In this document: piece after piece, positions 2,825 through 40,550 of the stretch | Layout of the letters: the number at the start of each line of letters is the position of its first letter | How positions within the stretch are numbered: the first letter of the stretch is position 1 | Source of the DNA: a virus | UHGV virus genome: UHGV-0239872 | Length of the DNA stretch: 42,526 bases | Strand: one strand, 5' to 3' | Program-made: the position numbers and the translations under genes | Notes under the pieces: model-generated | What the model saw: only the letters and a program-made list of their open reading frames with translations | The model's database searches: none | What the model was told of the DNA's origin: nothing

Positions 2825-3214
2825 TTACTCCACTACCCAAAACAGTTCACCGTCATAAGTCCAAGCGGTATGCTGCCCGGCTTCCATCTGCTCGCCTGTT
2901 TTGCTGACCAGCTTGCCAGCAGGCTTGCCCGGATACGGTGAATCCATGAAGATTGCATCATCATCTTTGGTCACTACCATGATGCAGTCCTGTTCAAAGG
3001 CTTTACAGAACAGCTTAACAGCCTGTCTGATTTCGTAGATTCCATCGACAGGAAAGACCATGCTTAACTCATACGCATTGTCGAACTTGCCTGTCAGTGT
3101 GACCGGAATCACTCCGAACATATCCTGCACCGTTCGCAGTGCCTTGCAATGAAGCGCCAGATTAACACACTCAGCGTTTCCCTGACGATATGCGCTTGCA
3201 TAGATACGGTACAT
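2825..3214 (-). CDS. hypothetical early protein (129 aa), first clear early gene downstream of the promoter cluster
   Basis: ATG 3212-3214 with TGGAGAAA SD. Confidence 0.5.
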   Translation of the reverse strand: MYRIYASAYRQGNAECVNLALHCKALRTVQDMFGVIPVTLTGKFDNAYELSMVFPVDGIYEIRQAVKLFCKAFEQDCIMVVTKDDDAIFMDSPYPGKPAGKLVSKTGEQMEAGQHTAWTYDGELFWVVE

Positions 3215-3687
3215 AGTTATTTCTCCAGTTGTTGGCTATTTTCAGGTGGATAGTGAACCCATTGTGACGCGCCGTACAGTCTGCACTCAGTGGCATTGAT
3301 TGGCTTGTCGGATTCACTACCCTGAAAAATCGCCCCGCCCATTTCGCGCTGTGAGTCACCACTCACTCTCAGGAGTCCTTTAGCAGTCCGTCGCGTATCT
3401 TGCTCACCGTTGCCAGCTAACAAGCCGTTTGACTACCCACCTACTACCCTCCGCGCCTTATAAGACGTTCGGTATTGTGCTGATACTGCGCTGCGTCTAT
3501 CGCGCTTCTCCGTTACCTTGCATCAGGCGCTACCCCTACGGCGTTAGCAATGTTGCGATACCGTTGCCTTTCGGCGATGCCTCACCCAGTTCCAACCTGC
3601 GGCGGATACCCAGTGAGCCGTGACACTACGCGGCCAGTTTGCGTTCACTCAGAGCAGGATGCTTTCCATCCTTTCAACTCGGTGCTG

Positions 3688-3716
3688 ATTACAACACAGT
3701 GTATTCAGCTTGTCAA
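3688..3716 (-). promoter_or_regulatory. sigma70-type promoter A (minus strand: TTGACA-N17-TGtTGTAAT, extended -10)
   Basis: rc of 3711-3716 is TTGACA; rc of 3688-3693 is TGTAAT; 17-nt spacer; TG at -15/-14. Confidence 0.6.
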
Positions 3717-3767
3717 CTACTTTTTACTTCTGACTGACTGGCTTGCTGCCCTGTCAATCTGGTGTGC

Positions 3768-3796
3768 ATTACAGCATACTCGTTTCATCCTGTCAA
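3768..3796 (-). promoter_or_regulatory. sigma70-type promoter B (TTGACA-N17-TGcTGTAAT)
   Basis: same module as A; part of the repeated unit ATTACAGCATA...CTGTCAAC on the plus strand. Confidence 0.6.
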
Positions 3797-3905
3797 CCGA
3801 TTTAATCAGCGCCCGTTCAGAGTTAATTAAACCGTACCAGTTAGCCTGCGCGGGTGTTAACGTGTTTATCCATCACTATTCGGCTTGTCTGGCTGACGTG
3901 GAAGC

Positions 3906-3934
3906 ATTACAGCATAGTGAGCTTGCCTTGTCAA
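3906..3934 (-). promoter_or_regulatory. sigma70-type promoter C (TTGACA-N17-TGcTGTAAT)
   Basis: same module; 17-nt spacer. Confidence 0.6.
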
Positions 3935-4006
3935 CACACCAGATTGTTAAAGAGCAGTGCTACCGTTCAATCTTGTCTACTGGGCTAGTGCCTTTCGACG
4001 TGATGA

Positions 4007-4036
4007 ATTACAGCACATAACCAAAACAGTTTGCAA
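4007..4036 (-). promoter_or_regulatory. sigma70-type promoter D (TTGCAA-N18-TGcTGTAAT) with AT-rich UP-like sequence upstream
   Basis: rc of 4031-4036 is TTGCAA; rc of 4007-4012 is TGTAAT; AT-rich 4037-4060. Confidence 0.5.
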
Positions 4037-4164
4037 GTATTATTTTCAAGAAAAGTGATAAGTTACTGTAATCATTAGGATTAAAGTTTGATTAGATAAT
4101 CACAACACTGGATAGAATACCGTTAGATTACCATGAATAAATCCTTATAAATCAATGATTAAAT

Positions 4165-4182
4165 GAAAGTAACTATAGTGAT
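4165..4182 (-). promoter_or_regulatory. candidate phage-RNAP promoter core (minus strand ATCACTATAGTTACTTTC, contains the SP6/T7/K11-type CACTATAG)
   Basis: exact 18-nt repeat of 26325-26342 in opposite orientation; sits in a roughly 180-bp AT-rich island between the terminus-like repeats and the sigma70 promoters, a position analogous to T7 phiOL. Confidence 0.4.
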
Positions 4183-4199
4183 AGATATCGCTAGATAGC

Positions 4200-4660
4200 T
4201 GTCAGCGAGCGCGGCGCAGCCGAAACAAGCGAGCGCGGAACGGCAACGGATGGAATCCGACAGGATGACAGGCGGCAGACAGTGAACGCAGTAGACAGAG
4301 TGTAGGACAGTAACAGCAGGTAGCAGAGCATGACGCGCAGAGCTGGAGGCGCAGACAGTAGACCAGCAGACAGGACAGCACCACGCAGCACCACCGCCAC
4401 CACACAGCACCACGCCGCGCCACGAAAAGAGACAGATACCCGCACGACCACGCGCAGCACGCAGCACAGCACAGCCAGCGCAGAGCGTCCCCATAGGACA
4501 GCACCGCACAGCACAGCCAGCAGGACAGCGCACAGCACGACACACGGCAGACGATGAAACGCGACACGCACGAGCTATACCGCACGCAGGCAATCCTTTC
4601 GACGCGCCGCGCAGCGCACGCGAGCAATTATCGCGCACGTCGCGAGGCTAAACCGCGCAC
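4200..4660. repeat. T-depleted (plus strand almost only A/C/G) CA/GCA-rich low-complexity tract with short imperfect direct repeats; candidate genome-terminus or terminal-repeat-adjacent repeat array
   Basis: T is about 3-8% over about 450 nt; CACAGCACAGCCAGC occurs twice (4465-4479 and 4507-4521); AGGACAGCAC occurs at 4372-4381 and 4496-4505, with a degenerate AGGACAGCGCAC copy at 4522-4533; junk ORFs in all six frames. Confidence 0.5.
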
Positions 4661-4777
4661 ACGCTATGGGGGCACGCGCGGTCATTTGGGTCGAGGGAGG
4701 GGCAAGTATAAACGTGCAATTTTCAAGCCGGGGTATTGCACCCACGGCCTGTTCATTGCCTCAGCTTTTGGATACCC

Positions 4778-5314
4778 CTACAGCGTCGCACAGTAAGCGC
4801 TACAGCGTTTTGCACGAGCAACCAAGGCATCCCTATAGCGAACCACTGTCGGGGCTGTAGAAGCCTTTAGGAACGCAATACGAAGGTCACAGATGGCTGC
4901 TGCTGCGGAGTGAGGTTCCAGACGTTTGGCTGCTGCCACGGTAGCAGGGCCAACAATCCCGTCTTGTGCAACGCCGCATACCCGCTGTAGAGCTTTCGCC
5001 GCACGGGAGACACCGGAGTTGACACCGTAGTCAAACACGGCACATGCAATCGCAGGGTGAAGTTCGTCACCTCGGATGGGGGTGTAGTAATCCCGTCGAT
5101 AGATTGCTTCGGCTTGTGCTTTGGTGAGCTGCTTGATAGGTACACAAATAGTGCCGCCAAGCCCAGTAGGGACACCACAAGCTCTGCCATCCAGTTTGCC
5201 ATCACGAGCGTCACTAATTCCATGATTCGTTTCCCCTCCGGTATCGCCGGGCAGCTTGGTGTAACCACCTTCTGCCAGCCCGGTGAACCGCATACAGATT
5301 TCAAAGTTAGTCAT
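4778..5314 (-). CDS. endolysin: GH108 N-acetylmuramidase-like catalytic domain plus PG_binding_3 domain; no SAR or signal sequence
   Basis: TGLAEGGY...DTGGETNHGIS matches the GH108 EGGY motif; C-terminal ...FDYGVNSG...DGIVGPAT matches PG_binding_3; last gene before the non-coding terminus region. Confidence 0.8.
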   Translation of the reverse strand: MTNFEICMRFTGLAEGGYTKLPGDTGGETNHGISDARDGKLDGRACGVPTGLGGTICVPIKQLTKAQAEAIYRRDYYTPIRGDELHPAIACAVFDYGVNSGVSRAAKALQRVCGVAQDGIVGPATVAAAKRLEPHSAAAAICDLRIAFLKASTAPTVVRYRDALVARAKRCSAYCATL

Positions 5315-5697
5315 TACATCCCCAGTAGTGTAGTGATGAAGGCTTGCAGTGAGCTTAAGTCACCAGCCTTGATTGCTAAGTAGATACCGCTACACAGGGA
5401 TGCAGTTAAGAGACACCATTTGACAGCGTGAGCCGCCGCCGTGAACAACTTACCGATGTGGCTCATAGTCTTTTGAATGTCCTGAATTTGCTCAACCACA
5501 AGGAGCTGCTGTTGAACCGTCTGCCAGCGGAGGTCGTTCTCTGCCAGCTTAGAAATCATTGCAGCATCGCCCTTCTCAAGAGTGGCGATTTGTACCTCGT
5601 GCTTGTCAAGTCGAAGTTCTACGGTCTGCATACGAGCCTCCACCGCACCCATACGCGAGTGGATGTTAGGAGATGGCTCCTTCTTTGCTTCCGTCAT
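5314..5697 (-). CDS. lysis-cassette protein with N-terminal coiled-coil and a single C-terminal TMD (127 aa); candidate holin or antiholin with unusual topology
   Basis: ATG 5695-5697 with AGGA SD; hydrophobic stretch WCLLTASLCSGIYLAI near the C-terminus; overlaps the upstream gene by 32 nt and the endolysin start by 1 nt. Confidence 0.45.
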   Translation of the reverse strand: MTEAKKEPSPNIHSRMGAVEARMQTVELRLDKHEVQIATLEKGDAAMISKLAENDLRWQTVQQQLLVVEQIQDIQKTMSHIGKLFTAAAHAVKWCLLTASLCSGIYLAIKAGDLSSLQAFITTLLGM

Positions 5698-6154
5698 CTT
5701 TCACTTTCCTTTTCCACGGAGATGGTACAAACCACATGACTAAACCAAGGATGCACGTAAGGCCCATGCCGAAAGCCCATAGGAGGCTGCGTGGGTCGCT
5801 CTGAGAGACGATAACCGTGCGAGCCTGTACGTTTCCTTGGGTCATTTGCGACCCCTGCTTAGAAGCGTTTACAGAGCCTCCTGAGACGTCCTTGATGGAT
5901 GTGCCATTCGAACCCTGCTTAGCGGTATCCACTTTCGCGTTGCCTGATACGTCACCGACTTCTGTTTCGTCGGACTGTTTCGCAGTCACACCGATACCTT
6001 GCTTCGTATTCTCTGCACCTACTTGAGCCGTCAGTTCCGGCTTGTTGGGAGATACAGCCGAAGTTACAGCAGACAGTGCGCTAGTTGCGGAGCAGCCCGT
6101 CAGAGTCAGCGACGCTGATAGGACTGCCCCGGCCATTAGCCGAGACAGTTTCAT
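5666..6154 (-). CDS. lipoprotein with lipobox LTGC and a C-terminal TMD (162 aa); candidate unimolecular spanin (T1 gp11-like architecture)
   Basis: signal MKLSRLMAGAVLSASLTLTG|C with Ser at +2; repetitive periplasmic region (AKQG/GDVSG repeats); C-terminal LLWAFGMGLTCILGLVMWFV followed by KRKVKDD. Confidence 0.5.
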   Translation of the reverse strand: MKLSRLMAGAVLSASLTLTGCSATSALSAVTSAVSPNKPELTAQVGAENTKQGIGVTAKQSDETEVGDVSGNAKVDTAKQGSNGTSIKDVSGGSVNASKQGSQMTQGNVQARTVIVSQSDPRSLLWAFGMGLTCILGLVMWFVPSPWKRKVKDDGSKEGAIS

Positions 6155-6164
6155 GAGATACCCC

Positions 6165-6359
6165 TTACGCTGCGGCGTTAGTCAGATTAGTGAGCGCCGT
6201 CTGAACACGGGTCACGAACTCTTGATAATACGCCACCAGCTCAGTGTTGGTGGTATCGAAGAAGTAGTCTTCCGTCCAAACGTTCAGATACTTGGCCGCC
6301 ATATTACAGGCTGCCACGAACTCCGCACGTTCAGTAGCGGTAGAGTCAACAAGTGCCAT
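6165..6359 (-). CDS. hypothetical soluble protein (64 aa) in the lysis region
   Basis: strong AAGGAG SD; no TMD. Confidence 0.5.
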   Translation of the reverse strand: MALVDSTATERAEFVAACNMAAKYLNVWTEDYFFDTTNTELVAYYQEFVTRVQTALTNLTNAAA

Positions 6360-6370
6360 AAAGATTCTCC

Positions 6371-7051
6371 TTAAGAGAGTGTAATGCCAGTGATTGCACC
6401 AGCGGAAACAGCGAAGGTCACGGTGTCGGTGTACGTGCCAGTGACCGGGATGGTCAGTGCATCACCGTTATCCACCATGGCCACAGTAGCGGCGAGGTTG
6501 AAGCCAGTGAGAGCACCGTTGCTTGCCACGACAGCAGTGGCGTTATGGCCGTCAGCACCAGCAGAGTTACGGACGGAGTAAGCCGAACCGTTAAGCACTG
6601 CATCGGCGTTAGCCGGGAGCCGCACGTTACTCAGCAGACCATCAGCTACACGGGCGGTAGCAGTGGTGATACCGAGGATAGAGCCGTCGAAGCGACGAAT
6701 CTCAGTTGAGTCAGTGTGGTCTACCAGCGCTGCGGTAGACAGGACGAGCTGCACGTTATCCAGCGTGGTGCCAGTAACGTTGGCAGTGGCGTTGTGCGCG
6801 TCGTTACCTGCGGAGTTAACCATGGAAACAGTAGCGCCGTCAGCCAGCAGAGCGGAACCTTCCGGTGTACCCGCGTAGCCAGCAGCCTCAAGTGCCGCCA
6901 CCAGATTTGTGATGGCAGTTTCAATGTCAGCAGCCTGAGCTGCCGTCACTGTACGGGTATCATTGCTGAAGCGTTGAGTCACGTTAGCTGCGATGCCGCA
7001 GCGATAACCAAGCTCGTAACGCTGAGCATCAGTGATGGTGATAATGGACAT
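6371..7051 (-). CDS. hypothetical Ala/Thr/Asn-rich protein with internal repeat (226 aa), immediately after large terminase
   Basis: ATG overlaps the TerL stop (ATGA-type junction); repeat NSAGNDAHNATANVTG / NSAGADGHNATAVVAS. Confidence 0.45.
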   Translation of the reverse strand: MSIITITDAQRYELGYRCGIAANVTQRFSNDTRTVTAAQAADIETAITNLVAALEAAGYAGTPEGSALLADGATVSMVNSAGNDAHNATANVTGTTLDNVQLVLSTAALVDHTDSTEIRRFDGSILGITTATARVADGLLSNVRLPANADAVLNGSAYSVRNSAGADGHNATAVVASNGALTGFNLAATVAMVDNGDALTIPVTGTYTDTVTFAVSAGAITGITLS

Positions 7052-8811
7052 TATTTGATTCTCCGTCGCGTGCCGCGCACAGGTTTATGGCTGCGCCACT
7101 TCGAGTCATCGTAACCCATTGGGTTGGCAAGGAACTCTCGTGCAGCAGCAGTCTCACGTTTGGCGGCTTCTTCATGTTCGTCCTGCTGTAGCACCTCAGC
7201 GTGCAGGTACACGGCAGCAGACAGGGTTTCGATGCGGTCATCATGGGGGATGGATTGACGGTCTTGTGTCAGGTTCTGGAGCTGCCAGAATAGGCTGAAC
7301 TCACGACCACCGTTATTCATACCCCGGCACAGCCGCAGGTCTTCTTCAACAACGCACCAATGTACAACGACACGGTGACGCTGCATGATTGGGCCGAGGC
7401 GGTTGATGATACGCACCTCTTTCTGACCGGACGAATACACGCCCTCGCAGCCAATGGTCAAGCTCTGCCGCTTAATCTCACCTCGGTACATGTTGGTCAC
7501 GGTGCCGTGGCCCATGTTATCCTCAATGACCAGCCGTTTAACCCCGGTTTCAGCGAGCCACTCTACCGCCGCCTTGATGTTTTCCTCCGTCTGGCCGCCG
7601 TGGTAGACGTGCATACCGATGACGTGGATAAACGGGCCGACAGAAGCGGTGGCAATGATAACTGATTCGTCCGACCCACCACCAGCAGGGTCAAGAAACG
7701 CCGAGGTATTTTCGAATGGTACATAAGTGTCCGAGAAATCAGCAGCCAAGAATAGCTGAGCACGAGCCAGTGGGAAATCCAGTGGCAGCTCGGCGGCATG
7801 GCGCGGGTGGTTCGACCAATGCAGAACCTCCGGCGCAGACTGCGTTGAGCCGTGGAAGAAGATTAAGTCTTTGAGATGTAACGTTTGTTTGAGCGCATCC
7901 GACAGCGACGTATCCAGCATGAACTGCAACTGGAAGCCTGCCTGCTGGTAGTCTCGTTCGTTCTGCAACTGCTTTTCTTCGGAGTAGCGTTGCGGGTCGG
8001 TCTGCGCACCACGGTTCCCAAGGATACCGTAGCCAGTGCGTAGCTCAGGGTGGCCTTCCATCTTCTGCTTAATCCACGGGGCCAGACAGCCGCCGTAGCG
8101 TTCTTCTTCCTCAACCGTTGGGAAACGACCGGGCCAGATGCGAACGTCGAAGCCACGCTGCGGGAGCGTGTTGTAGATGGAGTCCTGCGTCTGCGGTGTG
8201 CCGAGGTACAGAATCTCTGCACCATCGTTGGCGATAGCCGCAAACTCTTTGGTCAGGGTGTTGATACGGGCGCGGTTGGCAGGAGAGCTACCGTTACTGG
8301 TAGTCTCCACGTCATCGGCAATCAACAGCGATACGTGGTTCCCCTGCAACTGGCCGAAGATACCGACCGCTTTTACAGAGGGCTGTTTGTCAGGGATACG
8401 GAATGCGTGATGCACGTCGAAGCCGTCCGTATAGGACGTACGTGCGCCAGCGCGAGTCTCAGGGCGCAGCCATTCCAGACGCTCCCATTGCATAATGGCA
8501 GACACGATGGCGTGCGACAGCGTACCCGCATAGTCGTCCGAACCAGATACCAGCAACACAGTGGCGTTCGGCATCTGGACGAACTCGTACAGGGCGCGAG
8601 CAATACCGATGGTGGACTTTGCCTCACCGCGCTGAGCCATGACGCACTTGTTCTTGAGCGTCCGGTCGGCCATGTAGCGGCCAATGTCGAGCTGCATTTC
8701 AGTGAGGTCAAAGCCCAGCCATGCGAAGTAGTCATGCAGGAACAGCGGGAAGTTGTTCTCGTAGTGAGCGCGAACGATTCCTGCCATCACCATGCGGCGT
8801 TGTAAATCCAT
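7051..8811 (-). CDS. terminase large subunit (T7 gp19-like, 586 aa)
   Basis: PSVKAVGIFGQLQGNHVSLLIADDVE, YLGTPQT and AGFQLQFMLDTSLSD align with T7 gp19 motifs; same length as T7 gp19. Confidence 0.93.
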   Translation of the reverse strand: MDLQRRMVMAGIVRAHYENNFPLFLHDYFAWLGFDLTEMQLDIGRYMADRTLKNKCVMAQRGEAKSTIGIARALYEFVQMPNATVLLVSGSDDYAGTLSHAIVSAIMQWERLEWLRPETRAGARTSYTDGFDVHHAFRIPDKQPSVKAVGIFGQLQGNHVSLLIADDVETTSNGSSPANRARINTLTKEFAAIANDGAEILYLGTPQTQDSIYNTLPQRGFDVRIWPGRFPTVEEEERYGGCLAPWIKQKMEGHPELRTGYGILGNRGAQTDPQRYSEEKQLQNERDYQQAGFQLQFMLDTSLSDALKQTLHLKDLIFFHGSTQSAPEVLHWSNHPRHAAELPLDFPLARAQLFLAADFSDTYVPFENTSAFLDPAGGGSDESVIIATASVGPFIHVIGMHVYHGGQTEENIKAAVEWLAETGVKRLVIEDNMGHGTVTNMYRGEIKRQSLTIGCEGVYSSGQKEVRIINRLGPIMQRHRVVVHWCVVEEDLRLCRGMNNGGREFSLFWQLQNLTQDRQSIPHDDRIETLSAAVYLHAEVLQQDEHEEAAKRETAAAREFLANPMGYDDSKWRSHKPVRGTRRRIK

Positions 8812-9116
8812 TAGTGCATCATCCCGCTATCTTCTGCGATTGAGTTGATGGCAGCAGACATGATATCTTTACGACCTGCTTCCGTTTTCTCGTTGTTGAG
8901 CTGCTCTTGCAGCGCGAGTAAATCGTCGGCGTGGTCTTTATCAGCCTGAATACCGTTATCTTTCAGGAACTGGCGAAGTACGGACAGCTCAGCCGCCGCC
9001 ATAGGTTCAATGATATTACCGTGTTCATCTTTCCTACGAGCGTCGGCCAAGCGGTCGGACAGATACTCCACCAGCATCCGGTGCAGCCCGTCGAGCTGCT
9101 TATTCACGGATGCCAT
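8811..9116 (-). CDS. terminase small subunit (T7 gp18-like position, 101 aa)
   Basis: position immediately upstream of TerL; helical, charged; no motif check possible. Confidence 0.5.
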   Translation of the reverse strand: MASVNKQLDGLHRMLVEYLSDRLADARRKDEHGNIIEPMAAAELSVLRQFLKDNGIQADKDHADDLLALQEQLNNEKTEAGRKDIMSAAINSIAEDSGMMH

Positions 9117-9126
9117 GTGGTTCTCC

Positions 9127-11499
9127 TTAAACGTAAGCTACCGGATACGTGGCGGCGAGCTGCGTTCCCGCAGGGATAGCCGTCACAATGGCAGGGGTAA
9201 TGTCGATGCGTACTGGGTTTCCGATGTTGTTATCCACCTGATACGGAGCACGCACCACCGTCACAGTGAGTGTACTGCCTCCCGGCCCGGCACCCGGAAC
9301 ATTGAGTCGAGTACCAGCGGAGATTGGCTTATGGTACAGCCACGAGGTGGATGCCTGAGTACCAGCCGGAGTCAGGTTCTGCTCCAGATACGTCTGGCCA
9401 GCGGCGGCAGCACGCACCTTGAAGTTGTTACCGTCATCCGGGATGTAGGCACCGAACTGGGTGACGATGAACTGGCCACCTGAGCCGTCAGTCTTGAGCA
9501 GCACAGTACCTTCGCAGAACTCTTTCCCGGTAGGGAACTCAGCACCCGTCAGTGTTGCGAGGTTGTTCGGCAAGGTGTACATGCGGTTGACCGGAGACAG
9601 GATAACGCCAACGTTACCTTGGATGTTGGTGTACGGGATAGCACGCACGTTGGAGTTCAGCATACTGATATCCGAGTAGCGAGCCTTACTGTACAGAGCA
9701 CCCTCAGTCATGCCCGGCCCATAGAAGTTCACGTTCACCATATTGAGAACAGTCTTCTTACGCGGGTATAGACCGTTGGAGGACGTACCGCCGCTGGAGT
9801 CATCGCCCACAGCGTCGAACTCCACACCAGTTACGTTGGTCATGTTCAGCAGGGTTGCCACACCGAACAGCGTCATCTTGTAACAGTGGATATTTTCAAG
9901 GTGATACGTGTTGGTGTTGTCATCGTCGGAACCGACACCAGCGTAGAATCGCCCGGTGCGGGTCTGCACGTTACGCACAGTCATGTCAAACGATGGGCAA
10001 GCTGCGCCCGGCGTACCGCCAGCACCTGCTTGGTTCGCACCCCACTCCAGCATCACGACACGAATGTCGCCCGGCGCGGTAGACCCAGTGTTCAGAGGTT
10101 CACCTACCACACCATCAATGGTCATTCGCTTGCAGCCGTACGTGATTACGCCAGCGGCACTCAGACCAGTACCAATAGACACTGACAGGTCAGGGTTAGC
10201 CACTACGTTCTCGCAGGTGCTGTCACGCGTAACCTCGAAGTGGACGACCTGACGCACGCCACGCGGAGCATGGACGTTACGGACAGTGACGTTCTTCGCA
10301 TACTGCGTCTCAGCAGCATCCCAACCGAACGGGCCTTGACCAGCAATACCGATGCCAATACCCCAGTTGGACAGTGGAATAGGCGCGTTGGTGCCATCGA
10401 TATTCTCAAGGAAGATGTTCTCAATCAGCAGGCCACCATCATAGTGCTTGTTGATTACGTTCATCTCAATGCCATCACCCTGCATATCCATCATGGTGAT
10501 GCCACGGATAACGCCGTTGGTGATAGCCTCGCCAGTACCCTGCTGGAGAATACCGAACTTGCCATTGCGGTGAATACCGTTCTCAATGACGTAGCTGCCA
10601 CCTTGGATGTTGCCTTGGAACAGGATAGACGTAACCTTGGAGTTGCTCGGCGCACTGGTGAACTCATAGTCAGCAATGCGTACCTTACCACCCCAGTAAG
10701 CCACACGAACAGTGGAGGCCACGAAGTTGCGGAAGGTGGAGTTCAGCAGGCGAATGTCAGCCTTGCCGTGCCACTTACCGCCGACGACCTCAATACCATC
10801 CATCAGCACAGTGGAATCCACCGTACCTTCCCAACCGCGAGCATCAACGACCTTGCCGTTGGCTTTCGCATAGTCGAAGCAAGCCTGTACCGCAGCGGCA
10901 GTAGAGGCGTACCCTGTGTTGTTGGTGAACTCGGACAGGCAGACGGTATCCTGACGGTCGAGGAACGTGCCCCCGCCGAGAGTACCAATCCACTTACCGC
11001 CGTCAGCCATTGCCAGAGCAATAGCCAGTGCAGAGTCCGGGATATCGACCAGAGGAATCATGAACGGCTGACCGTTGCTGTCAAAGCCCAGTGCCTTGTT
11101 GCGGCGGCCAGCGACGTTCGGTAGTGCGTTGATAGAGACCTCGGAGTTTGGAACACGGACGGCGCGGTCAAGCGGCGCGAGCCATGCTTCCTGAGTTTCC
11201 TCAGCCTTAAACAGAATCTGCTCGAAGTTCTCGTCGAGGTTGCTGCCCGTGAAGGCAGCGTCCTGACCGAACTTATTAAGCAGAACCTCAGAGGTGTAGC
11301 GTTGGAGTCGGACAATCACCCCGGCGAGCGGGGCGGTGTCGAAGATAATCTGTTTGGTCACAGAGTTATAGGTGTACCCTTCCGTTTGAAGTTCGGAGTT
11401 GAGGTACACCTGAATCTCAGTGAACACGCGCTGCTCGAACGTGACGAGGAATGCGGTCTGTGAACCGTTCGCCACGTAAGCATTATAGCTGTTCGCCAT
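9127..11499 (-). CDS. tail fibre / tailspike: T7 gp17-like N-terminal adaptor domain plus right-handed beta-helix (pectate-lyase-like) depolymerase domain (790 aa)
   Basis: N-terminus MANSYNAYVANGSQTAFLVTFE... resembles the T7 gp17 N-terminus; central NGV/IxN-rich repeats typical of beta-helix glycosidases. Confidence 0.75.
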   Translation of the reverse strand: MANSYNAYVANGSQTAFLVTFEQRVFTEIQVYLNSELQTEGYTYNSVTKQIIFDTAPLAGVIVRLQRYTSEVLLNKFGQDAAFTGSNLDENFEQILFKAEETQEAWLAPLDRAVRVPNSEVSINALPNVAGRRNKALGFDSNGQPFMIPLVDIPDSALAIALAMADGGKWIGTLGGGTFLDRQDTVCLSEFTNNTGYASTAAAVQACFDYAKANGKVVDARGWEGTVDSTVLMDGIEVVGGKWHGKADIRLLNSTFRNFVASTVRVAYWGGKVRIADYEFTSAPSNSKVTSILFQGNIQGGSYVIENGIHRNGKFGILQQGTGEAITNGVIRGITMMDMQGDGIEMNVINKHYDGGLLIENIFLENIDGTNAPIPLSNWGIGIGIAGQGPFGWDAAETQYAKNVTVRNVHAPRGVRQVVHFEVTRDSTCENVVANPDLSVSIGTGLSAAGVITYGCKRMTIDGVVGEPLNTGSTAPGDIRVVMLEWGANQAGAGGTPGAACPSFDMTVRNVQTRTGRFYAGVGSDDDNTNTYHLENIHCYKMTLFGVATLLNMTNVTGVEFDAVGDDSSGGTSSNGLYPRKKTVLNMVNVNFYGPGMTEGALYSKARYSDISMLNSNVRAIPYTNIQGNVGVILSPVNRMYTLPNNLATLTGAEFPTGKEFCEGTVLLKTDGSGGQFIVTQFGAYIPDDGNNFKVRAAAAGQTYLEQNLTPAGTQASTSWLYHKPISAGTRLNVPGAGPGGSTLTVTVVRAPYQVDNNIGNPVRIDITPAIVTAIPAGTQLAATYPVAYV

Positions 11500-14400
11500 T
11501 ATTCACCCTTAACTGCTTCGTTGAGTGCTCGGACACCCGGCACAATGGAGATTAGTGGGAGAGCCTGAATGATGTTCCCGGCAGCCTTGCGAGCGTTATG
11601 CCCGGCTTGGTCGATATCCCCAGTAGCCAGACTCCCTGCCGTAGCAGAGGTGGCACCAGCAACACCGTACAGGCGGTCGAGGAACAACAGGCCCGGCGCA
11701 CCAAAGCTGCGCTGCTGCCCGGTCAAGATTCCAGTGAACTCAGAGGCAAAGCCGATAGCACCAAGATAGTTCAGTGCCTGACCAGCCAGTTTGTTCGGAG
11801 CCATGGTATCCGGGTCGGAGAATGCCTTACCGGAAATCACGTTGTTGGCAGCAGTGGCCATCATCGCCAGCGGATACTGGTACGCCATCAGCGTCGCCAT
11901 ACCACGGGCACCCTCACGATTCCAAGTACCAACCAGAGTCTTGTTGTGCGTAGCCGCGACGAATCGACGGAACGTAAACAGGAACTTACCCAGCGTACTG
12001 AACTCAGCAAATGCAGGCAGCTCACCTACGCGAGCGCGAACAATAGCGTCATCCATGGCATTCATCATGACAATGCGAGAGCGATTGAACACCCCTTCAT
12101 CCCAAGCGTCAGGCTTGGTGCCATGAGTACCAACCTGCTTGCGAATGTCAGCCAGCAGCGCGTCATTGGCACCGTAGGTTTTCATGGCTGCAATAGCCTT
12201 GGCATCACCTTCGGCTGCCTTGCGCAGCGTCTGCATCACGAGCGCAGCGTTGGTTCGAGTCTGGTGGAAGTGGATGTATTTCTGCATGTTGATGAACATC
12301 GTGGCATCGCGCAGGTGTTCCATACGCATGACCCACGGAGACTTATCCGCAGAGAACATGTCGTCATAGTGCTGCATGATTGGGCGCATACGAATATCAC
12401 TCGCTACAGCCGCAGTCAGCGCTTCTTCGGCATCCAGAGCCAATTGACGACCTTCCTTAGTAGTTACCCTCATTTGCTTAAATAATGCGCGTGCTTCGGG
12501 AATTGTACGCATCATGGCGCGAAACGTATTGACTGCCCCGAAACGTTGCATCATCGTGCCGTATTCTACCAACTGCCACAGGCCAGATGCAGCCAGACCA
12601 GTCGCCTGAGTCAGTGCCGAAAGCTGGCGCATGAACTCCGGCATTTCCTCACCAACAGGAGCACCTTGGTAGTAAGCCATGATGTTGTCGTACTGGTCGA
12701 GAGCCTTGCGGCGTGCTGTGCTATCCGGGATGGATTTGGCCAGAGCCTCGCGAGCGGCGGCGCGTTCAGCGTCAGTACCCAGTCCAGCTTCATGCAGAGC
12801 CAGTCGCCCGGTAATGCGGCGGTTATAGCTGTCCATCATACTGGTGATGCTGTCGTCGAACAGGTCACGCACCTGCAAGTTAGGGCCAAGCGTGTGCATC
12901 ATGTCGATGTTGATACGGCTCTTAAGCATCGACGGTCGGCCAGCGTCCGAGCCAGACTCACGAAGGAGTGCGGAAGCACGGGCCTTGGCAGCCTCGTCGA
13001 GACCTTTCGAGTTCTCAATGATTTCGAGCAATTCATCGCGACCTTCCTTGTTGATAATCATACCGGAGTTGTCGATACCGTAACCCTTACGACGAGCACG
13101 CTCAACCATGGCATGGGCAATGACGTTGGCAGTCGGACGGTCAGTACCGATACCGCGCTGCACAGCAGTCGTCATCTGCTTCATGAATGGCTTCTTGCCG
13201 AGCAACTGCTCAGCCTGCTCAATCTTGGTCACGTTCATCCGGCGCGGGTAGTAGTACGGGTTCTTGTCTACGAATCCCGGTTCCACCATACCCTTCGCCT
13301 CCAGCTCGCGGCCCACGGCGCGGGAGTATTCCCCCAGTCGGTCGGCGGCAGCGGCCACGTTAGCGTTGGCACCTCGGAACTCTTTGTCAATCATGCGCTT
13401 GTCCAGCTCGAAACGGACAGCAGCTTCGAACTCCTGCTGCGCCCGGCGATAGCCCACTGGGTCACGGAAGCGCCGGATGTTAGTCCAGCCATCAGTATTC
13501 AGTGCGTTACGCAGGGTGTCCTCGTACTGGTTCAGCAGCACACCAAACCGAGCCTGAGTCTCTCGCTGGATAGATGCAGCGGAAGTCATGTTCGGATTCA
13601 GTGGGTCATCCAGCAGTCGCCCGGCGAGAGCACTGGCTTCGTCGGAATGCTGACTGAACGACTTGAACAGAGACCATTCAAGGAACGGACGCTTAGGGTT
13701 GGTCTGCTCACCGCGACGGGCGAGGTCAAGGCCGCGCTGTGCAGTGGCCCGGATGGATTCCGGCACCTCGTCAACCACAGTCGCGCCACGACCACCAAAG
13801 CCCAATGACATGGCCAACGGCGACATAGCATTGTTCGGGTCGAACTGCGGCGGGTTGTTCGGGTCGATGCCGTTACGACGCTGCATCTCTGCTGCAAATT
13901 CCTCTGGCGACAAGTCGGCCAGCGAGCGCTGTACCGGGGCCGGGCGATAGAATGCAGTGGTGGCCGCCCCGTGCAGGGCAGCCGCGAAGATGATTTCGTT
14001 CTGAGACACTGGGCGTGCTTCGTTACCCACCGCTGTCATAGTGGCAGCAGTTGAAGCTGCACCGACAGCGGCGGTTCCGAGGCGACCTAATTTCAGGGCA
14101 GTGCCTGCTCCCATCGAGAGCAGGTCAGTGGCAAGGTACAGCGGGTCAGCGAATTGCAGAACCGCGTTCATCACCGGGGCAGTGTGAGCCAACTGGGTAC
14201 GCTCGCGCATCTCTTGAAGCTGCTGCGTACGCCAGTTGAACTCGTCCATGGATTTGGATTTAAACAGGAAGGTTCTGTCGTCTTCGCCTACCGGGAACTG
14301 CACGTTCTGCAAAGCCTCATTGGGCTTGAAGTCCGGGTCAGCTTGGAAGGTAGGCTTGTTGAAGGCGGCATCAAAGAGCTGGGTGGTATCCCAGTTCTTC

Positions 14401-14606
14401 ACAGAAGCGCTCAACGCCGTGGCCATCGGAGTCGCTTCCAGTTCCTGCATCTTGTCGAACTGCTCGACGGCACCCTGACGAGTGGCATCTTGCAGTGGAG
14501 TGCTGAGGTCAGCAGTCTTTACGGGAGCTGGAATCACCAGCGTAGGGGCGTTGGCCCCCTGCTTGGGAGCCATGAACTTGTCGAGCGATTCTTGTGTGAT
14601 AATCAT
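11499..14606 (-). CDS. internal virion / ejection protein, largest (gp16-like position, 1035 aa)
   Basis: size and position between the gp15-like protein and the tail fibre in the T7-like structural order. Confidence 0.65.
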   Translation of the reverse strand: MIITQESLDKFMAPKQGANAPTLVIPAPVKTADLSTPLQDATRQGAVEQFDKMQELEATPMATALSASVKNWDTTQLFDAAFNKPTFQADPDFKPNEALQNVQFPVGEDDRTFLFKSKSMDEFNWRTQQLQEMRERTQLAHTAPVMNAVLQFADPLYLATDLLSMGAGTALKLGRLGTAAVGAASTAATMTAVGNEARPVSQNEIIFAAALHGAATTAFYRPAPVQRSLADLSPEEFAAEMQRRNGIDPNNPPQFDPNNAMSPLAMSLGFGGRGATVVDEVPESIRATAQRGLDLARRGEQTNPKRPFLEWSLFKSFSQHSDEASALAGRLLDDPLNPNMTSAASIQRETQARFGVLLNQYEDTLRNALNTDGWTNIRRFRDPVGYRRAQQEFEAAVRFELDKRMIDKEFRGANANVAAAADRLGEYSRAVGRELEAKGMVEPGFVDKNPYYYPRRMNVTKIEQAEQLLGKKPFMKQMTTAVQRGIGTDRPTANVIAHAMVERARRKGYGIDNSGMIINKEGRDELLEIIENSKGLDEAAKARASALLRESGSDAGRPSMLKSRINIDMMHTLGPNLQVRDLFDDSITSMMDSYNRRITGRLALHEAGLGTDAERAAAREALAKSIPDSTARRKALDQYDNIMAYYQGAPVGEEMPEFMRQLSALTQATGLAASGLWQLVEYGTMMQRFGAVNTFRAMMRTIPEARALFKQMRVTTKEGRQLALDAEEALTAAVASDIRMRPIMQHYDDMFSADKSPWVMRMEHLRDATMFINMQKYIHFHQTRTNAALVMQTLRKAAEGDAKAIAAMKTYGANDALLADIRKQVGTHGTKPDAWDEGVFNRSRIVMMNAMDDAIVRARVGELPAFAEFSTLGKFLFTFRRFVAATHNKTLVGTWNREGARGMATLMAYQYPLAMMATAANNVISGKAFSDPDTMAPNKLAGQALNYLGAIGFASEFTGILTGQQRSFGAPGLLFLDRLYGVAGATSATAGSLATGDIDQAGHNARKAAGNIIQALPLISIVPGVRALNEAVKGE

Positions 14607-26262: not shown

Positions 26263-26324
26263 ACAATCCTCTCTTAGTGGCAGTAACCCCCGCCACTGAC
26301 GGGGCTACCGGTAGCGTGATACAT

Positions 26325-26342
26325 ATCACTATAGTTACTTTC
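26325..26342 (+). promoter_or_regulatory. second copy of the ATCACTATAGTTACTTTC motif (plus-strand orientation), in an AT-rich structured spacer just after the RNAP gene
   Basis: exact 18/18 match to rc(4165-4182); extended similarity about 30 nt (TTAAA[T]GAAAGTAACTATAGTGATA); flanked by palindromes GTGATAtgTATCAC and GCTACCGGTAGC and a GC hairpin CCCCG-7nt-CGGGG. Confidence 0.4.
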
Positions 26343-26369
26343 TTTAAGTGCAAGAAATATAAGGCTAAA

Positions 26370-28799
26370 TTAGCAGAAGAATTTAGAGGATTTATTTACC
26401 TCGTTAATGTCTAACTGCCCCCGCGCTGGCGGCTCTTTACTATATCTCATGGCAAGTTGTTGAATTGGGTCATGTTGCTCATACATCTGTACGAACTTTT
26501 CACGAATGACCTTGTGGAGTAACCCGGCATGTGCAGCCGCCACCCCGAACGAATCGTGGATGGACACCATGTACACCCCGTTATTCCACATCTCCCACAA
26601 CACCTTCATCATGTGGCTGGCATCCATGGCATGTACGAAATTCGGAGCAATCGCAGCGGCACACTTCCTGCCGTCTGGTTTGTCGATATACTCCCGTAGC
26701 ACGATAGCATGTACCTTCATCAGATACAGCATCATGCGAGTCTCTTTACTTGCCTGATACAGATTAACCACACGCAGACCTGACGGGGCAGTGAACTCTA
26801 CATACTCGCCGTTGGCTGCCGCCTCAACCGCGATAGCCTGCAACCATGCCATCAGCTCTGCCGCCTTCGGCACAACGCGGGGGATTGCATTCCACATGAA
26901 CTCTGCGATGAACTGCGCACACTCCAGCAGGCTCTTGCCGTCCGGCAGCTTGACCCGGTTCTCTCGCAGATACAGGCAGTAGTAATCCACCATACCGTGC
27001 CGGGTTGCCCCGTACACGTAGGTCATCACTGGCTTCTTAGCCATCGCCCGGACAATACCGATTGAAACAAGCCACGTACCCATCTGCGTTGGTGACTGCG
27101 CTTCACTATCTTCAAGAGCCTGCATCGCCGCTGCTGCCGTCTTGAGATATATGTCTGCCTTTCGCCCCACGCTATTGATAAGGTTGACAGCAGCACCCCC
27201 AACTTCATCGCGTAACATTGCGCTGAGGTGTTGGAGACCTGAACATGTAGCGTCCCACTGCGTAACCACTCGGCAGGGATAAGTCTCAGGACTTCCGCTG
27301 TCGATAGCTCGAATGAGTTCAACAGATGCAGCCCACGCTGAGATAGGGCTATCGGCCTCAGACCAGAACGAATCAAATGCCTCTGGAAGACGGCACGCCT
27401 CACGTAGTCGGGGGAGTGTTTTGTCCGTCCACGCCGCCCGGTCGTCGAAGTCTGTTGCGTCGTAGCCGAAGCAATTCGCAACATGAACCTTGAGCCAGAA
27501 CAGCCCCTCAGTTCCGAGAGCCACTGGTTCCGCAAGCTCAAGCAGCGCTCGCACCGCGTCGATAGACTGAGGGTTAAGGGTCGAAGAATAATAAATTCGG
27601 CCCCGCGTATCGGCGTAAGTCGGGAGATAAATCCTATCGTACTGGGCATAGCGCTCGGCCTCTTTGACTGCGCCGTTCAGTGCCAGCATCTGCGACGTGA
27701 ACTTACGCAACTCATTGTAATACAAGCGAGTCTTCACCTTGTACTCATGAGCTTCCGCATCCATCTGCTGCTGCATCTCTGGTGGGAACTTGCTGATGTA
27801 CTGGGCGAAGCTGACGCCTGCCGGGATAGTGAATGGGAGCTTAGGCTCACGAGGCGGCACAGGCAGCCCCATAACGCCTGTACGGTTCGTTCGCAGGAAC
27901 TCCAGTACCATTGGGTTAACTCGGTACGGAACGCTGCTGAGCATCATACACGGCTCTATAACAGGGGTCGGGTCAACGTTCAATGCACGATACCCTTTGT
28001 GGTTCATGCGACTCATGACCCGGTACATCGCCGCCTGCCCATCTGAATGCCACATACCACTGCGACCATTCGGGGCAATCTGCTTCGGTGGGATAATCAG
28101 CGGTGGGCAGCACATGCCATCGGCACGCGGCATGTCCAGCCAGTCGTTCATCGTAGCCAGCACATCTTCATGCAGTGCGAAGTGTGCCGTACCGCGCTGG
28201 CGCTGGTTGCCGCCGACGCGAATCGTGGACACCAGACCAGTCGGCTCAACGCACTTCATCATCAGCTTGCCAATGGTAATCAGCGCACGCTGCGGCAGCA
28301 CATCAATCTCCACCCCAACGTTCGCCGCCGACGCACGCGCTTTATTGTAAACGTGGTTCGCTGACTTCGAGCGAGACTTCTTCACGTCCTGCTGCACGCG
28401 CTCCATGTAAGCCGCCTGCTGTGGCCCGGTCTGCTTCGCCCGGAGATACACCACCTCAGCCATTAGTGCCTTGCCCATATTCTTAAGCAAGCTCAGCACT
28501 GCCTGCTCTGACGCAGCACCGGACACCGCCATGCTCAGTGCAAGAGAGGCACACGCTTTGGCACCAATCTCACGCATGAACGTCCGGTACTGCGCACCTG
28601 CACCACGGGTCGTTTCGCTCAGGGTTTCTTGCATCGCAGCTTCGACCAGAGGATAAGCCTCAACCATCATACGCTGGAGCAACGGCACCGACCCGGCGCG
28701 GCCACTGGCCATCGCCTCTTTGATATTATCCAGCCAGCCCTCGCGGTGTCTGGCTCGCGCTTCTTCTTCAAGTCGAATCTGCTCTGCAAGTAAATCCAC
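26370..28799 (-). CDS. single-subunit DNA-dependent RNA polymerase (T7 gene 1-like, 809 aa)
   Basis: [20 protein letters not shown] (T7: [20 protein letters not shown]), [27 protein letters not shown] and IHDSFG motifs; AAGGAG SD. Confidence 0.96.
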   Translation of the reverse strand: [809 protein letters not shown]

Positions 28800-40506: not shown

Positions 40507-40550
40507 CAATATAGTTACCTTCATAATGCCAGCTAAATAATAACTGGCAT
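40507..40550. promoter_or_regulatory. AT-rich intergenic element: degenerate third copy of the TATAGTTAC motif (ATATAGTTACCTTC, plus orientation) plus a perfect 7-bp hairpin ATGCCAG-11nt-CTGGCAT
   Basis: 12/14 match to the ACTATAGTTACTTTC core; hairpin at 40526-40550. Confidence 0.3.

What the first reader, a model, noticed from the sequence alone, without database searches (positions are those of the whole stretch)
4157..4190. SP6/T7/K11-type promoter core CACTATAG embedded in an exact 18-nt repeat that occurs twice in inverted orientation, each time in an AT-rich island
ATCACTATAGTTACTTTC is present on the minus strand at 4165-4182 and on the plus strand at 26325-26342, with extended similarity of about 30 nt. 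A degenerate third copy, ATATAGTTACCTTC, lies at 40507-40525. The 9-mer CACTATAG is the -8 to +1 core shared by T7, SP6 and K11 promoters, and this phage encodes a clearly T7-like RNAP. The copy at 4165-4182 is oriented toward the early genes, like T7 phiOL at the left end. The copy at 26325-26342 lies directly after the RNAP gene in an AT-rich, palindrome-rich spacer, which recalls the T7 primary replication origin (phi1.1A/B plus an AT-rich region just after gene 1). It points antisense to the RNAP gene. The repeats may therefore be phage promoters coupled to replication origins, or binding sites for a regulator.
Basis: partly seen in the sequence, partly recalled or inferred. Interest (0 to 1): 0.68.

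Follow-up and report, generated by a model that had tools for sequence, protein, structure and literature searches.

The report
Phage RNA polymerase promoters, one inverted

Summary
ATCACTATAGTTACTTTC occurs exactly at 4165-4182 (-) and 26325-26342 (+), with none expected by chance, and the degenerate copy near 40507-40524 is genuine.

The window is a whole Bonnellvirus-like Autographiviridae genome with its genes on the minus strand. The motif is the promoter of the phage's single-subunit RNA polymerase, but it reads ATGAAAGTAACTATAGTG. The T7-like CACTATAG lies on the other strand because the core ACTATAGT is palindromic.

Evidence from 12 relatives:
- Every copy within a genome carries the same variant (GTAAC, GTGTC, GTGAC or GCTAC).
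- Each variant goes with its own sequence in the RNAP specificity loop.
- The block shared by all copies ends sharply at TG.
- Relatives with non-palindromic motifs keep the same orientations.

So site 2 points sense into the late genes, not antisense into the RNAP gene. Site 3 follows the early terminator. A fourth copy lies inside a virion-protein gene (12456-12473). Site 1 points away from the early genes, across a U-poor spacer and the terminal repeat.

This layout matches the experimentally mapped LUZ19 promoters, including antisense P001. It is a new member of a known kind. The role of the leftward copy remains open.

The parts
4163..4180 (+). Site 1: phage-RNAP promoter ATGAAAGTAACTATAGTG on the window plus strand, which is antisense to all phage genes. 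It fires toward the terminal repeat. It contains the reported 18-mer (4165-4182). The inferred start is G4178 or G4180.
   Evidence: Exact repeat. Antisense copy present at the same place in all 12 Bonnellvirus genomes and in LIMEzero, each with that genome's own motif variant. Geometry conserved.
4178..4191 (+). Small hairpin GTGATAGATATCGC at the 5' end of the predicted leftward transcript.
   Evidence: Folds to a 5-bp stem of -3.3 kcal/mol. Relatives keep a hairpin here with a variable loop, and J8-65 and smaasur have one with a different sequence.
4183..4694 (+). Stretch copied by a leftward transcript: the spacer plus the putative terminal repeat. It has 7.6% T on the RNA-like strand, the genome-wide minimum, and is made of degenerate ACAGCAC-type short repeats.
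   Evidence: Composition, repeats. The same T depletion is seen in J8-65, LIMEzero and LUZ19.
4450..4694 (.). Putative direct terminal repeat, present once in this circularly permuted assembly. The limits are approximate.
   Evidence: Homology (69% identity) to the 259-bp annotated repeat of J8-65. Not determined for this phage.
4425..4437 (-). ATCTGTCTCTTTT on the sense strand. It resembles the T7 class II pause/termination signal and sits at the inner edge of the terminal repeat.
   Evidence: Occurs exactly once per Bonnellvirus genome, always on the sense strand, 256-310 nt from site 1. In J8-65 it starts 13 nt inside the repeat boundary.
3688..4036 (-). Four host-type early promoters (TTGMMA-N17-18-TGTAAT, three preceded by TGn) at 4036-4007, 3934-3906, 3796-3768 and 3716-3688. 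They diverge from site 1.
   Evidence: Read from the sequence. The pattern is found at conserved offsets in 12 genomes. The consensus scanner missed them because its -10 rule requires A at position 2.
26327..26344 (-). Site 2: phage-RNAP promoter AAGAAAGTAACTATAGTG on the sense strand, 26 nt after the RNAP stop codon. It drives the structural and lysis genes.
   Evidence: Same position as the 'putative phage specific promoter' annotated in LIMEzero at 20330-20349 and as LUZ19 P007/P008 and KP34 S1.
26316..26329 (-). Hairpin GTGATATGTATCAC at the 5' end of the predicted late transcript.
   Evidence: -4.2 kcal/mol. J8-65 has TCTGGtatacCCAGA in its place.
40507..40524 (-). Site 3: weaker promoter copy ATGAAGGTAACTATATTG on the sense strand, upstream of a small gene and the primase/helicase/DNA polymerase block.
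   Evidence: Carries each phage's variant. Same position as LIMEzero's annotated promoter at 7294-7313.
40528..40548 (-). Hairpin GCCAGTTATTATTTAGCTGGC immediately before site 3, a likely early-region terminator.
   Evidence: Read from the sequence. Conserved in relatives. LIMEzero annotates a terminator at the equivalent place.
12456..12473 (-). Site 5: promoter-like copy ATGAGGGTAACTACTAAG inside the internal-virion-protein gene (11499-14606), upstream of the tailspike, terminase and lysis genes.
   Evidence: Carries GTAAC, GTGTC, GTGAC or GCTAC in step with the other copies of each genome, although these changes alter the encoded amino acids. Lidtsur and LIMEzero have their own versions at about the same offset into the homologous gene, roughly nt 2130.
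26370..28799 (-). T7-like single-subunit RNA polymerase gene (809 aa).
   Evidence: Matches T7 RNAP over residues 6-784 with E = 2e-57.
26670..26759 (-). Codons for RNAP residues 681-710, aligned to the T7 specificity loop. T7 R746, N748, R756 and Q758 align to R688, M690, K695 and H697.
   Evidence: Alignment. Hot spot of variation that tracks the promoter variant.

Best explanation
The 18-mer is the core of the promoter recognised by this phage's own T7-like single-subunit RNA polymerase. The functional reading is ATGAAAGTAACTATAGTG, about -17 to +1, with transcription probably starting at one of the last two G's. The window holds four copies.

Three copies lie on the coding strand:
- Site 3 follows the early-region terminator hairpin and switches on the DNA-replication genes.
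- Site 2 lies 26 nt after the RNAP gene and drives the structural genes.
- Site 5 lies inside an internal-virion-protein gene and boosts the distal late genes.

The fourth copy, site 1, is inverted. It lies about 270 nt inside the terminal repeat, back to back with the host-type early promoters. Once the phage RNAP has been made, it should fire leftward through a U-poor, terminator-free spacer and across the terminal repeat. On concatemers the transcript would continue into the right end of the neighbouring genome copy.

Shown here: the repeat, its conservation, its orientation, and its co-variation with the RNAP loop. Inferred: that the RNAP initiates at these sites, and what the leftward transcript is for. 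My preferred reading of its role has low confidence. It transcribes the concatemer junction head-on against late read-through, and so shields the early region and/or opens the repeat for end processing.
For: 1. The genome encodes a T7-like RNAP.
2. The motif occurs at fixed positions and orientations in 12 Bonnellvirus genomes.
3. All copies within a genome share the same variant at three adjacent positions: GTAAC in the window, GTGTC in four phages, GTGAC in three, GCTAC in one. J8-65 and smaasur have CTGT in place of CTAT. This holds even for the copy embedded in a coding region.
4. Each variant has its own specificity-loop sequence. Window versus megetsur RNAPs differ at 9 of 680 residues outside the loop and 11 of 31 within it (Fisher p = 2e-11). 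Phages with the same variant have identical loops.
5. The block shared by sites 1, 2 and 3 within each genome runs from ATG to TG and stops sharply there. It is asymmetric about the palindrome. Numbered as -17 to +1, the co-varying bases fall at -10 to -8.
6. LIMEzero's record annotates sense-strand phage promoters at the equivalents of sites 2 and 3. LIMEzero also has an unannotated antisense copy of its own non-palindromic motif at 653, upstream of its host promoters.
7. The validated promoter of the CD23823 RNAP, AATGTATACCCCTATATACAC, has the same ATG-N7-CTATA build (PMC12272871).
8. LUZ19 promoters mapped by ONT-cappable-seq have the same layout, including antisense P001, which is conserved in 15 other Phikmvvirus species (PMC10914365). 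I located P001's motif at 751 on the antisense strand, 279 nt inside the repeat and upstream of the sigma-70 promoters.
Against: No transcription data exist for this phage or any Bonnellvirus, so initiation and the exact start are inferred. Sequence-level co-variation is partly confounded by shared ancestry, since there are only about five independent variants. The CD23823 start was reported as A, and its position could not be read from the text, so the +1 assignment is approximate. KP34 has its left-end promoter on the sense strand, and so does T7 from my own knowledge. Orientation at the left end is therefore not universal. The palindromic core in this phage could in principle allow weak initiation in the other direction. 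No terminator or defined 3' end was found for the leftward transcript.
Confidence: 0.82

Rival explanations
1. The promoter is the T7-like ...ATCACTATAG reading, so the left-end copy fires rightward into the early genes like T7 phiOL, and the copy after the RNAP gene fires antisense into that gene.
For: CACTATAG matches the T7, SP6 and K11 core at 8 of 8 positions (own knowledge; see also the KpnP and Ro45Iw promoters). KP34's left-end promoter is on the sense strand. Dev-CD-23823 has an antisense copy right after its RNAP gene.
Against: In this orientation the block common to all copies would run from about -1 to +17, and the co-varying bases would lie at about +5 to +7 of the transcript. Site 3 would read CCAATATAG and lose the CAC. 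The J8-65, Lidtsur and LIMEzero copies are not palindromic and resemble their genome's other promoters only in the opposite reading. Sites 2, 3 and 5 would all fire against the genes.
Confidence: 0.06
2. The repeats are binding sites for another sequence-specific protein, such as a phage regulator or a replication or packaging factor, rather than RNAP promoters.
For: The copies are in inverted orientation. Sites 1 and 2 have palindromes next to them (GTGATAnnTATCAC), and megetsur-type phages have a second palindrome upstream of site 2. Both sites lie in an AT-rich setting.
Against: The variant bases track the RNAP specificity loop. The positions match predicted or mapped RNAP promoters in LIMEzero, LUZ19 and KP34. 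The build matches a validated promoter. The palindrome's spacer varies in length from 2 to 3 nt, and J8-65 has a different hairpin in its place. That pattern fits an RNA hairpin better than a dimer-binding site.
Confidence: 0.05
3. Site 1 is a promoter whose main job is DNA metabolism rather than transcription control. The leftward, U-poor transcript would form a stable RNA-DNA hybrid that primes replication, or exposes the terminal repeat for concatemer formation or processing. This would make it a functional analogue of the T7 phiOL secondary origin and end-processing region.
For: A phage promoter about 260-290 nt inside the left repeat recurs in Bonnellvirus, LIMEzero, LUZ19 and KP34 in either orientation. 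That argues against a purely strand-specific role. The transcribed stretch has the lowest T content in the genome, a feature conserved across genera. It sits next to an AT-rich island with divergent promoters and faces a pause-like signal at the repeat edge.
Against: There are no replication data. No iterons were found. T depletion could equally serve to avoid termination, or could reflect a constraint on the sense strand. The LUZ19 authors favour a transcriptional-insulation role.
Confidence: 0.25
4. The two identical copies are a chance or recombination by-product with no function.
For: The window looks mosaic. The flanks upstream of sites 1 and 2 are J8-65-like, while the downstream parts are megetsur-like. 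Recombination has therefore shaped these regions.
Against: No matches are expected by chance. Position, orientation and concerted variation are conserved across 12 genomes and a second genus.
Confidence: 0.01

Closest known systems
LUZ19 / Phikmvvirus phage-specific promoters P001 and P007-P009 (Putzeys et al., microLife 2024, PMC10914365)
   Same: Few promoters per genome: copies directly after the RNAP gene, one in the structural region, and one on the opposite strand at the left end between the terminal repeat and the host early promoters. LUZ19 has the motif at 751 with the repeat ending at 472. J8-65 has it at 548 with the repeat ending at 259. In both, the stretch between the repeat and the promoter is strongly T-depleted on the antisense strand.
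   Different: The motif sequence is unrelated (GgtTATGTCACacACAnnGG). The RNAPs are only about 32% identical. Bonnellvirus also has a middle promoter before the replication genes. The LUZ19 promoters are mapped experimentally, whereas these are inferred.
Predicted phage-specific promoters of Pantoea phage LIMEzero (GenBank FR751545 annotation)
   Same: Homologous positions: after the RNAP gene, and after a terminator before the primase gene. Same orientation and a related build (ATrAAGGCAAkCACTAwG).
   Different: Different genus and a different motif. The record does not annotate the antisense left-end copy (653) or the copies at 20743 and 33869 that I found.
T7 phiOL (left-end T7 RNAP promoter upstream of A1; own knowledge)
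   Same: A phage-RNAP promoter a few hundred bases inside the left terminal repeat, immediately upstream of the strong host early promoters. The core contains ACTATAG.
   Different: phiOL points rightward, toward the early genes. Site 1 points leftward. The bases at the specificity positions differ.
KP34 strong promoter S2 at nt 475-490 (Lu et al. 2019, PMC6834552)
   Same: A left-end copy 259 nt inside the terminal repeat, with further copies behind the RNAP gene and in the structural region.
   Different: The left-end copy is on the sense strand, and the motif is unrelated (TrATGTTACAGGAGTA).
Validated promoter of the Cronobacter phage Dev-CD-23823 RNAP (JBC 2025, PMC12272871)
   Same: The same build: ATG, then 7 nt, then CTATA, followed by a purine start within a few bases.
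   Different: The middle bases differ (TATACCC against AAGTAAC). The copies are placed differently in the genome: a sense copy at the start of the record and a divergent pair after the RNAP gene. It belongs to a different subfamily.

Membership tests
Promoters of T7-like single-subunit phage RNA polymerases | The genome encodes a T7-like single-subunit RNAP | tested here: met
   The 809-aa product of 26370-28799 (-) matches T7 RNAP with E = 2e-57 over residues 6-784.
Promoters of T7-like single-subunit phage RNA polymerases | A conserved motif of about 18-23 bp, repeated in the genome and placed upstream of and co-oriented with gene blocks | tested here: met
   Sites 2, 3 and 5 are on the coding strand ahead of the late, middle and distal-late genes. 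The shared block is 18-19 nt.
Promoters of T7-like single-subunit phage RNA polymerases | Motif bases around -8 to -11 co-vary with the RNAP specificity loop | tested here: met
   Five motif variants correspond to five loop sequences. Window versus megetsur shows 11 of 31 loop differences against 9 of 680 elsewhere, p = 2e-11.
Promoters of T7-like single-subunit phage RNA polymerases | The cognate RNAP initiates at the motif | not testable with these tools
   No transcription data are available for any Bonnellvirus. The nearest experimental support is the CD23823 promoter of the same build.
phiKMV-type promoter layout with an antisense left-end promoter (LUZ19 P001 class) | [quoted passage not shown] | tested here: met
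   Site 2 starts 26 nt after the RNAP stop codon.
phiKMV-type promoter layout with an antisense left-end promoter (LUZ19 P001 class) | A copy on the non-coding strand between the left terminal repeat and the host early promoters | tested here: met
   Site 1 in 12 of 12 Bonnellvirus genomes and in LIMEzero. Compared directly with LUZ19.
phiKMV-type promoter layout with an antisense left-end promoter (LUZ19 P001 class) | Antisense transcripts from it run across the repeat into the right-end genes | not testable with these tools
   The only support is that no terminator-like sites above background were found on the plus strand from 4180 to 12000.
phiKMV-type promoter layout with an antisense left-end promoter (LUZ19 P001 class) | Sequence motif GgtTATGTCACacACAnnGG | tested here: not met
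   The motif here is ATGAAAGTAACTATAGTG. The likeness is one of layout, not of sequence family.
T7 phiOL-type left-end promoter | Points rightward toward the early genes | tested here: not met
   The asymmetry of the conserved block and the non-palindromic relatives show a leftward orientation.
T7 primary-origin type (promoter followed by an AT-rich region after the RNAP gene) | An AT-rich region downstream of the promoter, and initiation of replication there | tested here: not met
   In the functional orientation, site 2 is followed by a small hairpin, a GC-rich hairpin and a gene start. The AT-rich part (26350-26399) lies upstream. No iterons were found. Replication itself is not testable here.
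T7 class II pause/termination signal at the concatemer junction | ATCTGTT in the non-template strand followed by a U-rich tract, near the edge of the terminal repeat | tested here: inconclusive
   ATCTGTCTCTTTT (6 of 7 plus a T tract) occurs once per genome on the sense strand. In J8-65 it starts 13 nt inside the repeat boundary. In T7 any base change abolishes function, and this RNAP may differ.

The most novel reading that the evidence does not exclude
The inverted promoter, the conserved U-poor transcribed spacer and terminal repeat, and the sense-strand pause-like signal at the repeat edge may together form a left-end module shared across distant Autographiviridae. These include Bonnellvirus, Waewaevirus and Phikmvvirus, with a sense-oriented version in KP34 and T7. 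Its purpose would be DNA-end biology rather than gene expression: transcription-driven opening or R-loop formation over the terminal repeat that primes replication or promotes concatemer formation and cutting.
Probability: 0.22. Interest if true: 0.65.

Novelty: new member of a known kind. Interest (0 to 1): 0.38.

Why it matters
It gives a concrete, testable promoter for an RNAP clade that has no experimentally defined promoter. Only 22 phage records carry an RNAP more than 60% identical to this one. It also corrects the strand on which that promoter should be read.

The genus offers a natural series of RNAP-promoter pairs in which nearly identical polymerases differ mainly in the specificity loop, and their promoters differ at three adjacent bases. 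That is useful material for understanding or engineering orthogonal transcription systems.

Finally, it shows that the antisense left-end promoter mapped in LUZ19 also exists in a lineage whose RNAP is only about 32% identical. This strengthens the case that the leftward transcript has a conserved, still unknown role.

Tried and rejected
- Rfam, whole window at gathering thresholds: no hit.
- Consensus scans for terminators in the path of the leftward transcript: nothing above the shuffled background.
- Consensus promoter scanner: it missed the obvious host promoters because their -10 is TGTAAT. I found them by pattern instead.
- Coding potential downstream of site 1: only short or low-complexity ORFs caused by T-poor composition, and relatives have indels that are not multiples of three. 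Rejected as a gene.
- Iterons or origin-like repeats at either site: only degenerate ACAGCAC-type repeats in the spacer and repeat, and none at site 2.
- A 5-mismatch look-alike at window 16709-16726 (+): it is conserved as GTAAC in all phages and does not co-vary, so it is not a promoter.
- The AGTTACTGTAAT element at 4061-4072, which pairs with part of site 1: it also does not co-vary.
- Site 4, a copy overlapping the start codon of the gp36-like gene in J8-65, smaasur, RZ4, forsur, ROV85, Lidtsur and LIMEzero: absent from the window, which reads ATGAAGCAGGCTATCAAC.
- The original LIMEzero paper could not be retrieved.
- The exact +1 of the CD23823 promoter is shown only in a figure.

Full report
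WHAT IS THERE

The 18-mer ATCACTATAGTTACTTTC is present exactly as reported, at 4165-4182 on the minus strand and 26325-26342 on the plus strand. There are no other matches with up to three mismatches, and none are expected in shuffled sequence. The flanks share further bases over about 55 nt. The degenerate third copy is GAAGGTAACTATA, 12 of 13, at 40510-40522. Site 1 lies at the edge of a 200-bp island of 24-32% GC in a 56% GC genome. Site 2 lies in a smaller AT-rich patch. The core ACTATAGT is a palindrome, so an ACTATAG core occurs on both strands at each site. The sequence alone therefore does not give a direction.

CONTEXT

The window is a complete, circularly permuted genome of a Bonnellvirus-like member of the Autographiviridae. 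It is 84-96% identical over the 6-kb query (window 3000-9000) to the '-sur' coliphages, Ec1-ASingh and BHUENT7, and to J8-65. Essentially all genes lie on the window's minus strand.

- In J8-65 the ends are annotated. A 259-bp direct terminal repeat lies next to the endolysin gene. About 1.2 kb of non-coding DNA then precedes the first early gene, a SAM hydrolase.
- By homology, the window's repeat is about 4450-4694.
- Reading the phage sense strand from there, one meets a strongly skewed spacer, then site 1, then four host-type promoters (TTGMMA-N17-18-TGTAAT) at 4036-4007, 3934-3906, 3796-3768 and 3716-3688, then the early genes.
- Site 2 lies 26 nt after the stop codon of the T7-like RNAP gene at 26370-28799 (-).
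- Site 3 follows a hairpin and precedes a small gene and the primase-helicase-polymerase block.

DIRECTION AND IDENTITY

I oriented twelve relatives to the sense strand and located every copy. Four results decide the matter.

1. Fixed layout. The copy after the RNAP gene and the copy before the replication genes are always on the sense strand when read as ATGAAAGTAACTATAGTG. The left-end copy is always antisense.

2. Concerted variation. All copies in one genome carry the same variant at three adjacent bases. The window has GTAAC. Megetsur, Ec1-ASingh, BHUENT7 and aldrigsur have GTGTC. RZ4, forsur and ROV85 have GTGAC. Kc261 has GCTAC. J8-65 and smaasur have CTGT where the others have CTAT. 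This holds even for a copy I found inside the internal-virion-protein gene, at window 12456-12473 (-), reading ATGAGGGTAACTACTAAG. There the changes alter the encoded amino acids.

3. Asymmetric shared block. The block shared by sites 1, 2 and 3 within each genome runs from ATG to the final TG and ends sharply there. It extends 11 nt to one side of the palindrome and 1-2 nt to the other. If the last G is +1, the block is -17 to +1 and the variable bases sit at -10 to -8. [quoted passage not shown]

4. Non-palindromic relatives. In J8-65, Lidtsur and LIMEzero the motif is not palindromic. The left-end copy matches the genome's other promoters only in the leftward reading.

LINK TO THE POLYMERASE

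The window's RNAP aligns to T7 RNAP. T7 R746, N748, R756 and Q758 fall at R688, M690, K695 and H697. Across the genus, this 30-residue stretch is the main hot spot of variation.

- Window and megetsur RNAPs differ at 9 of 680 residues before it and at 11 of 31 within it (Fisher p = 2e-11).
- Phages with the same promoter variant have identical loops (RZ4, forsur and ROV85). Each variant has its own loop sequence.

Shared ancestry confounds this to some degree, because there are only about five independent variants. The concentration of change in the loop is still hard to explain otherwise.

COMPARISON WITH WHAT IS KNOWN

- LIMEzero. Its GenBank record annotates 'putative phage specific promoters' on the sense strand at the equivalents of sites 2 and 3. 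I additionally found an unannotated antisense copy of its motif at 653, upstream of its annotated host promoters, and copies at 20743 and 33869.
- Dev-CD-23823. The experimentally validated promoter of its RNAP, AATGTATACCCCTATATACAC, has the same ATG-N7-CTATA build (PMC12272871).
- LUZ19. ONT-cappable-seq mapped four phage-specific promoters. [quoted passage not shown] The fourth, P001, is on the opposite strand at the left end. Its transcripts run into the right-end genes, and the same antisense promoter was found in 15 other Phikmvvirus species (PMC10914365). I checked LUZ19 directly. The P001 motif is at 751 on the antisense strand. That is 279 nt inside the 472-bp repeat and about 160 nt before the first annotated sigma-70 promoter. 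J8-65 has the same geometry, with the repeat ending at 259 and the motif at 548.
- KP34. Strong promoters lie behind the RNAP gene, in the structural region, and at 475-490 near the left end (PMC6834552). That left-end copy is on the sense strand, 259 nt inside the repeat.

The Bonnellvirus layout is therefore the known phiKMV-type layout, with a different motif and an RNAP only about 32% identical to those groups.

HOW IT LIKELY WORKS

Host RNAP transcribes the early region from the four strong promoters. Once the phage RNAP is made, it should start at three sense-strand sites. Site 3 serves the replication genes. Site 2 serves the structural genes; its leader begins with a small hairpin, followed by a conserved GC-rich hairpin. 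Site 5 serves the distal late genes.

It should also start at site 1 and run leftward. That transcript would begin with a small hairpin. It would cross a stretch with 7.6% T on the RNA-like strand, the lowest of any 500-nt window in the genome. This depletion is shared by J8-65 (8.7%), LIMEzero (13%) and LUZ19 (6.8%). The transcript would meet no terminator-like site above background. On concatemers it would continue into the lysis genes of the neighbouring unit as antisense RNA.

The LUZ19 authors suggest that such transcription stops late transcription from reading on into the early genes. An alternative is a role in replication priming or end processing. Three observations suggest this:
- A left-end phage promoter recurs in either orientation.
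- The transcribed stretch has an extreme composition.
- A sense-strand ATCTGTCTCTTTT sits at the repeat edge. It resembles the orientation-dependent T7 class II signal ATCTGTT found near the T7 concatemer junction.

Neither role can be tested here.

The comparison with the T7 primary origin does not fit, because the AT-rich patch is upstream of site 2 in the functional orientation and there are no iterons. A separate regulator is unlikely, given the co-variation with the RNAP loop.

VERDICT

This is a real and functional-looking feature that is essentially explained. It is a new member of a known kind. Interest is moderate to low for the promoters themselves. The natural series of loop-promoter pairs and the conserved, unexplained leftward transcription across the terminal repeat add some interest.

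Noticed in passing
window 4425-4437 (-); J8-65 L003 272-284: ATCTGTCTCTTTT (ATCTATCTTTTTT in J8-65) occurs exactly once per Bonnellvirus genome, on the sense strand. In J8-65 it starts 13 nt inside the terminal-repeat boundary. It resembles the T7 class II pause signal ATCTGTT plus a U tract, which in T7 lies near the concatemer junction.
   Followed up: partly
window 4183-4706 (+): The most T-depleted 500-nt stretch on either strand of the genome: 7.6% T against 23% overall. It is made of degenerate ACAGCAC-type repeats. The same depletion is seen between the left end and the left-end promoter in J8-65, LIMEzero and LUZ19. Its purpose is unknown.
   Followed up: partly
window 26370-26450 and 26670-26759 (-), RNAP residues 681-710 and 784-809: The RNAP looks mosaic. 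Its body is megetsur-like (9 of 680 differences). The specificity loop and the last 26 residues are closer to J8-65 (7 of 30 and 3 of 26 differences). The sequences just upstream of sites 1 and 2 are also J8-65-like, while the downstream parts are megetsur-like.
   Followed up: partly
window 12456-12473 (-), inside gene 11499-14606: A promoter copy embedded in the internal-virion-protein gene carries each phage's motif variant, so promoter co-evolution changes the encoded residues (Val-Thr, Val-Ser or Ala-Thr). Lidtsur and LIMEzero have their own versions at about nt 2130 of the homologous gene. J8-65 lacks it.
   Followed up: yes
window 3688-4036 (-): Four strong host-type early promoters with an unusual conserved -10, TGTAAT, three of them preceded by TGn. 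They sit at conserved spacing in all 12 genomes. The tool's consensus scan does not detect them.
   Followed up: yes
window about 26283-26312 (-): A conserved GC-rich hairpin (GGTAGCCCCGTCAGTGGCGGGGGTTAC) lies in the leader of the predicted late transcript, between site 2 and the first late gene. It is present in most relatives but not in J8-65, smaasur or Lidtsur. It could be a processing or stability element.
   Followed up: no
L005 megetsur about 18827-18856 and the equivalents in L007, L008, L009, L012 and L014: Megetsur-type phages carry a second copy of the palindrome (AGTGATATGTATCAT) about 25 nt upstream of site 2. It mirrors the one just after the promoter. The window lacks it.
   Followed up: no
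L015 Dev-CD-23823, 19321 (antisense) and 19334 (sense): This phage has a back-to-back divergent pair of its validated promoter directly after the RNAP gene, with one copy pointing into that gene. It also has a sense copy at nt 19 of the record. Antisense phage promoters therefore occur at different places in different groups.
   Followed up: partly
MN850583 glasur record ends, corresponding to window about 4184-4186: Judging from BLAST coordinates, the deposited glasur sequence is opened within a few bases of site 1. This could be coincidence or an assembly break at the inverted repeat.
   Followed up: no
window about 26058-26075 (-), start of the gp36-like gene: Several relatives and LIMEzero have a promoter copy overlapping the start codon of this gene. 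The window has a longer gene here (155 aa, against 139 aa in most relatives) and no such copy.
   Followed up: partly
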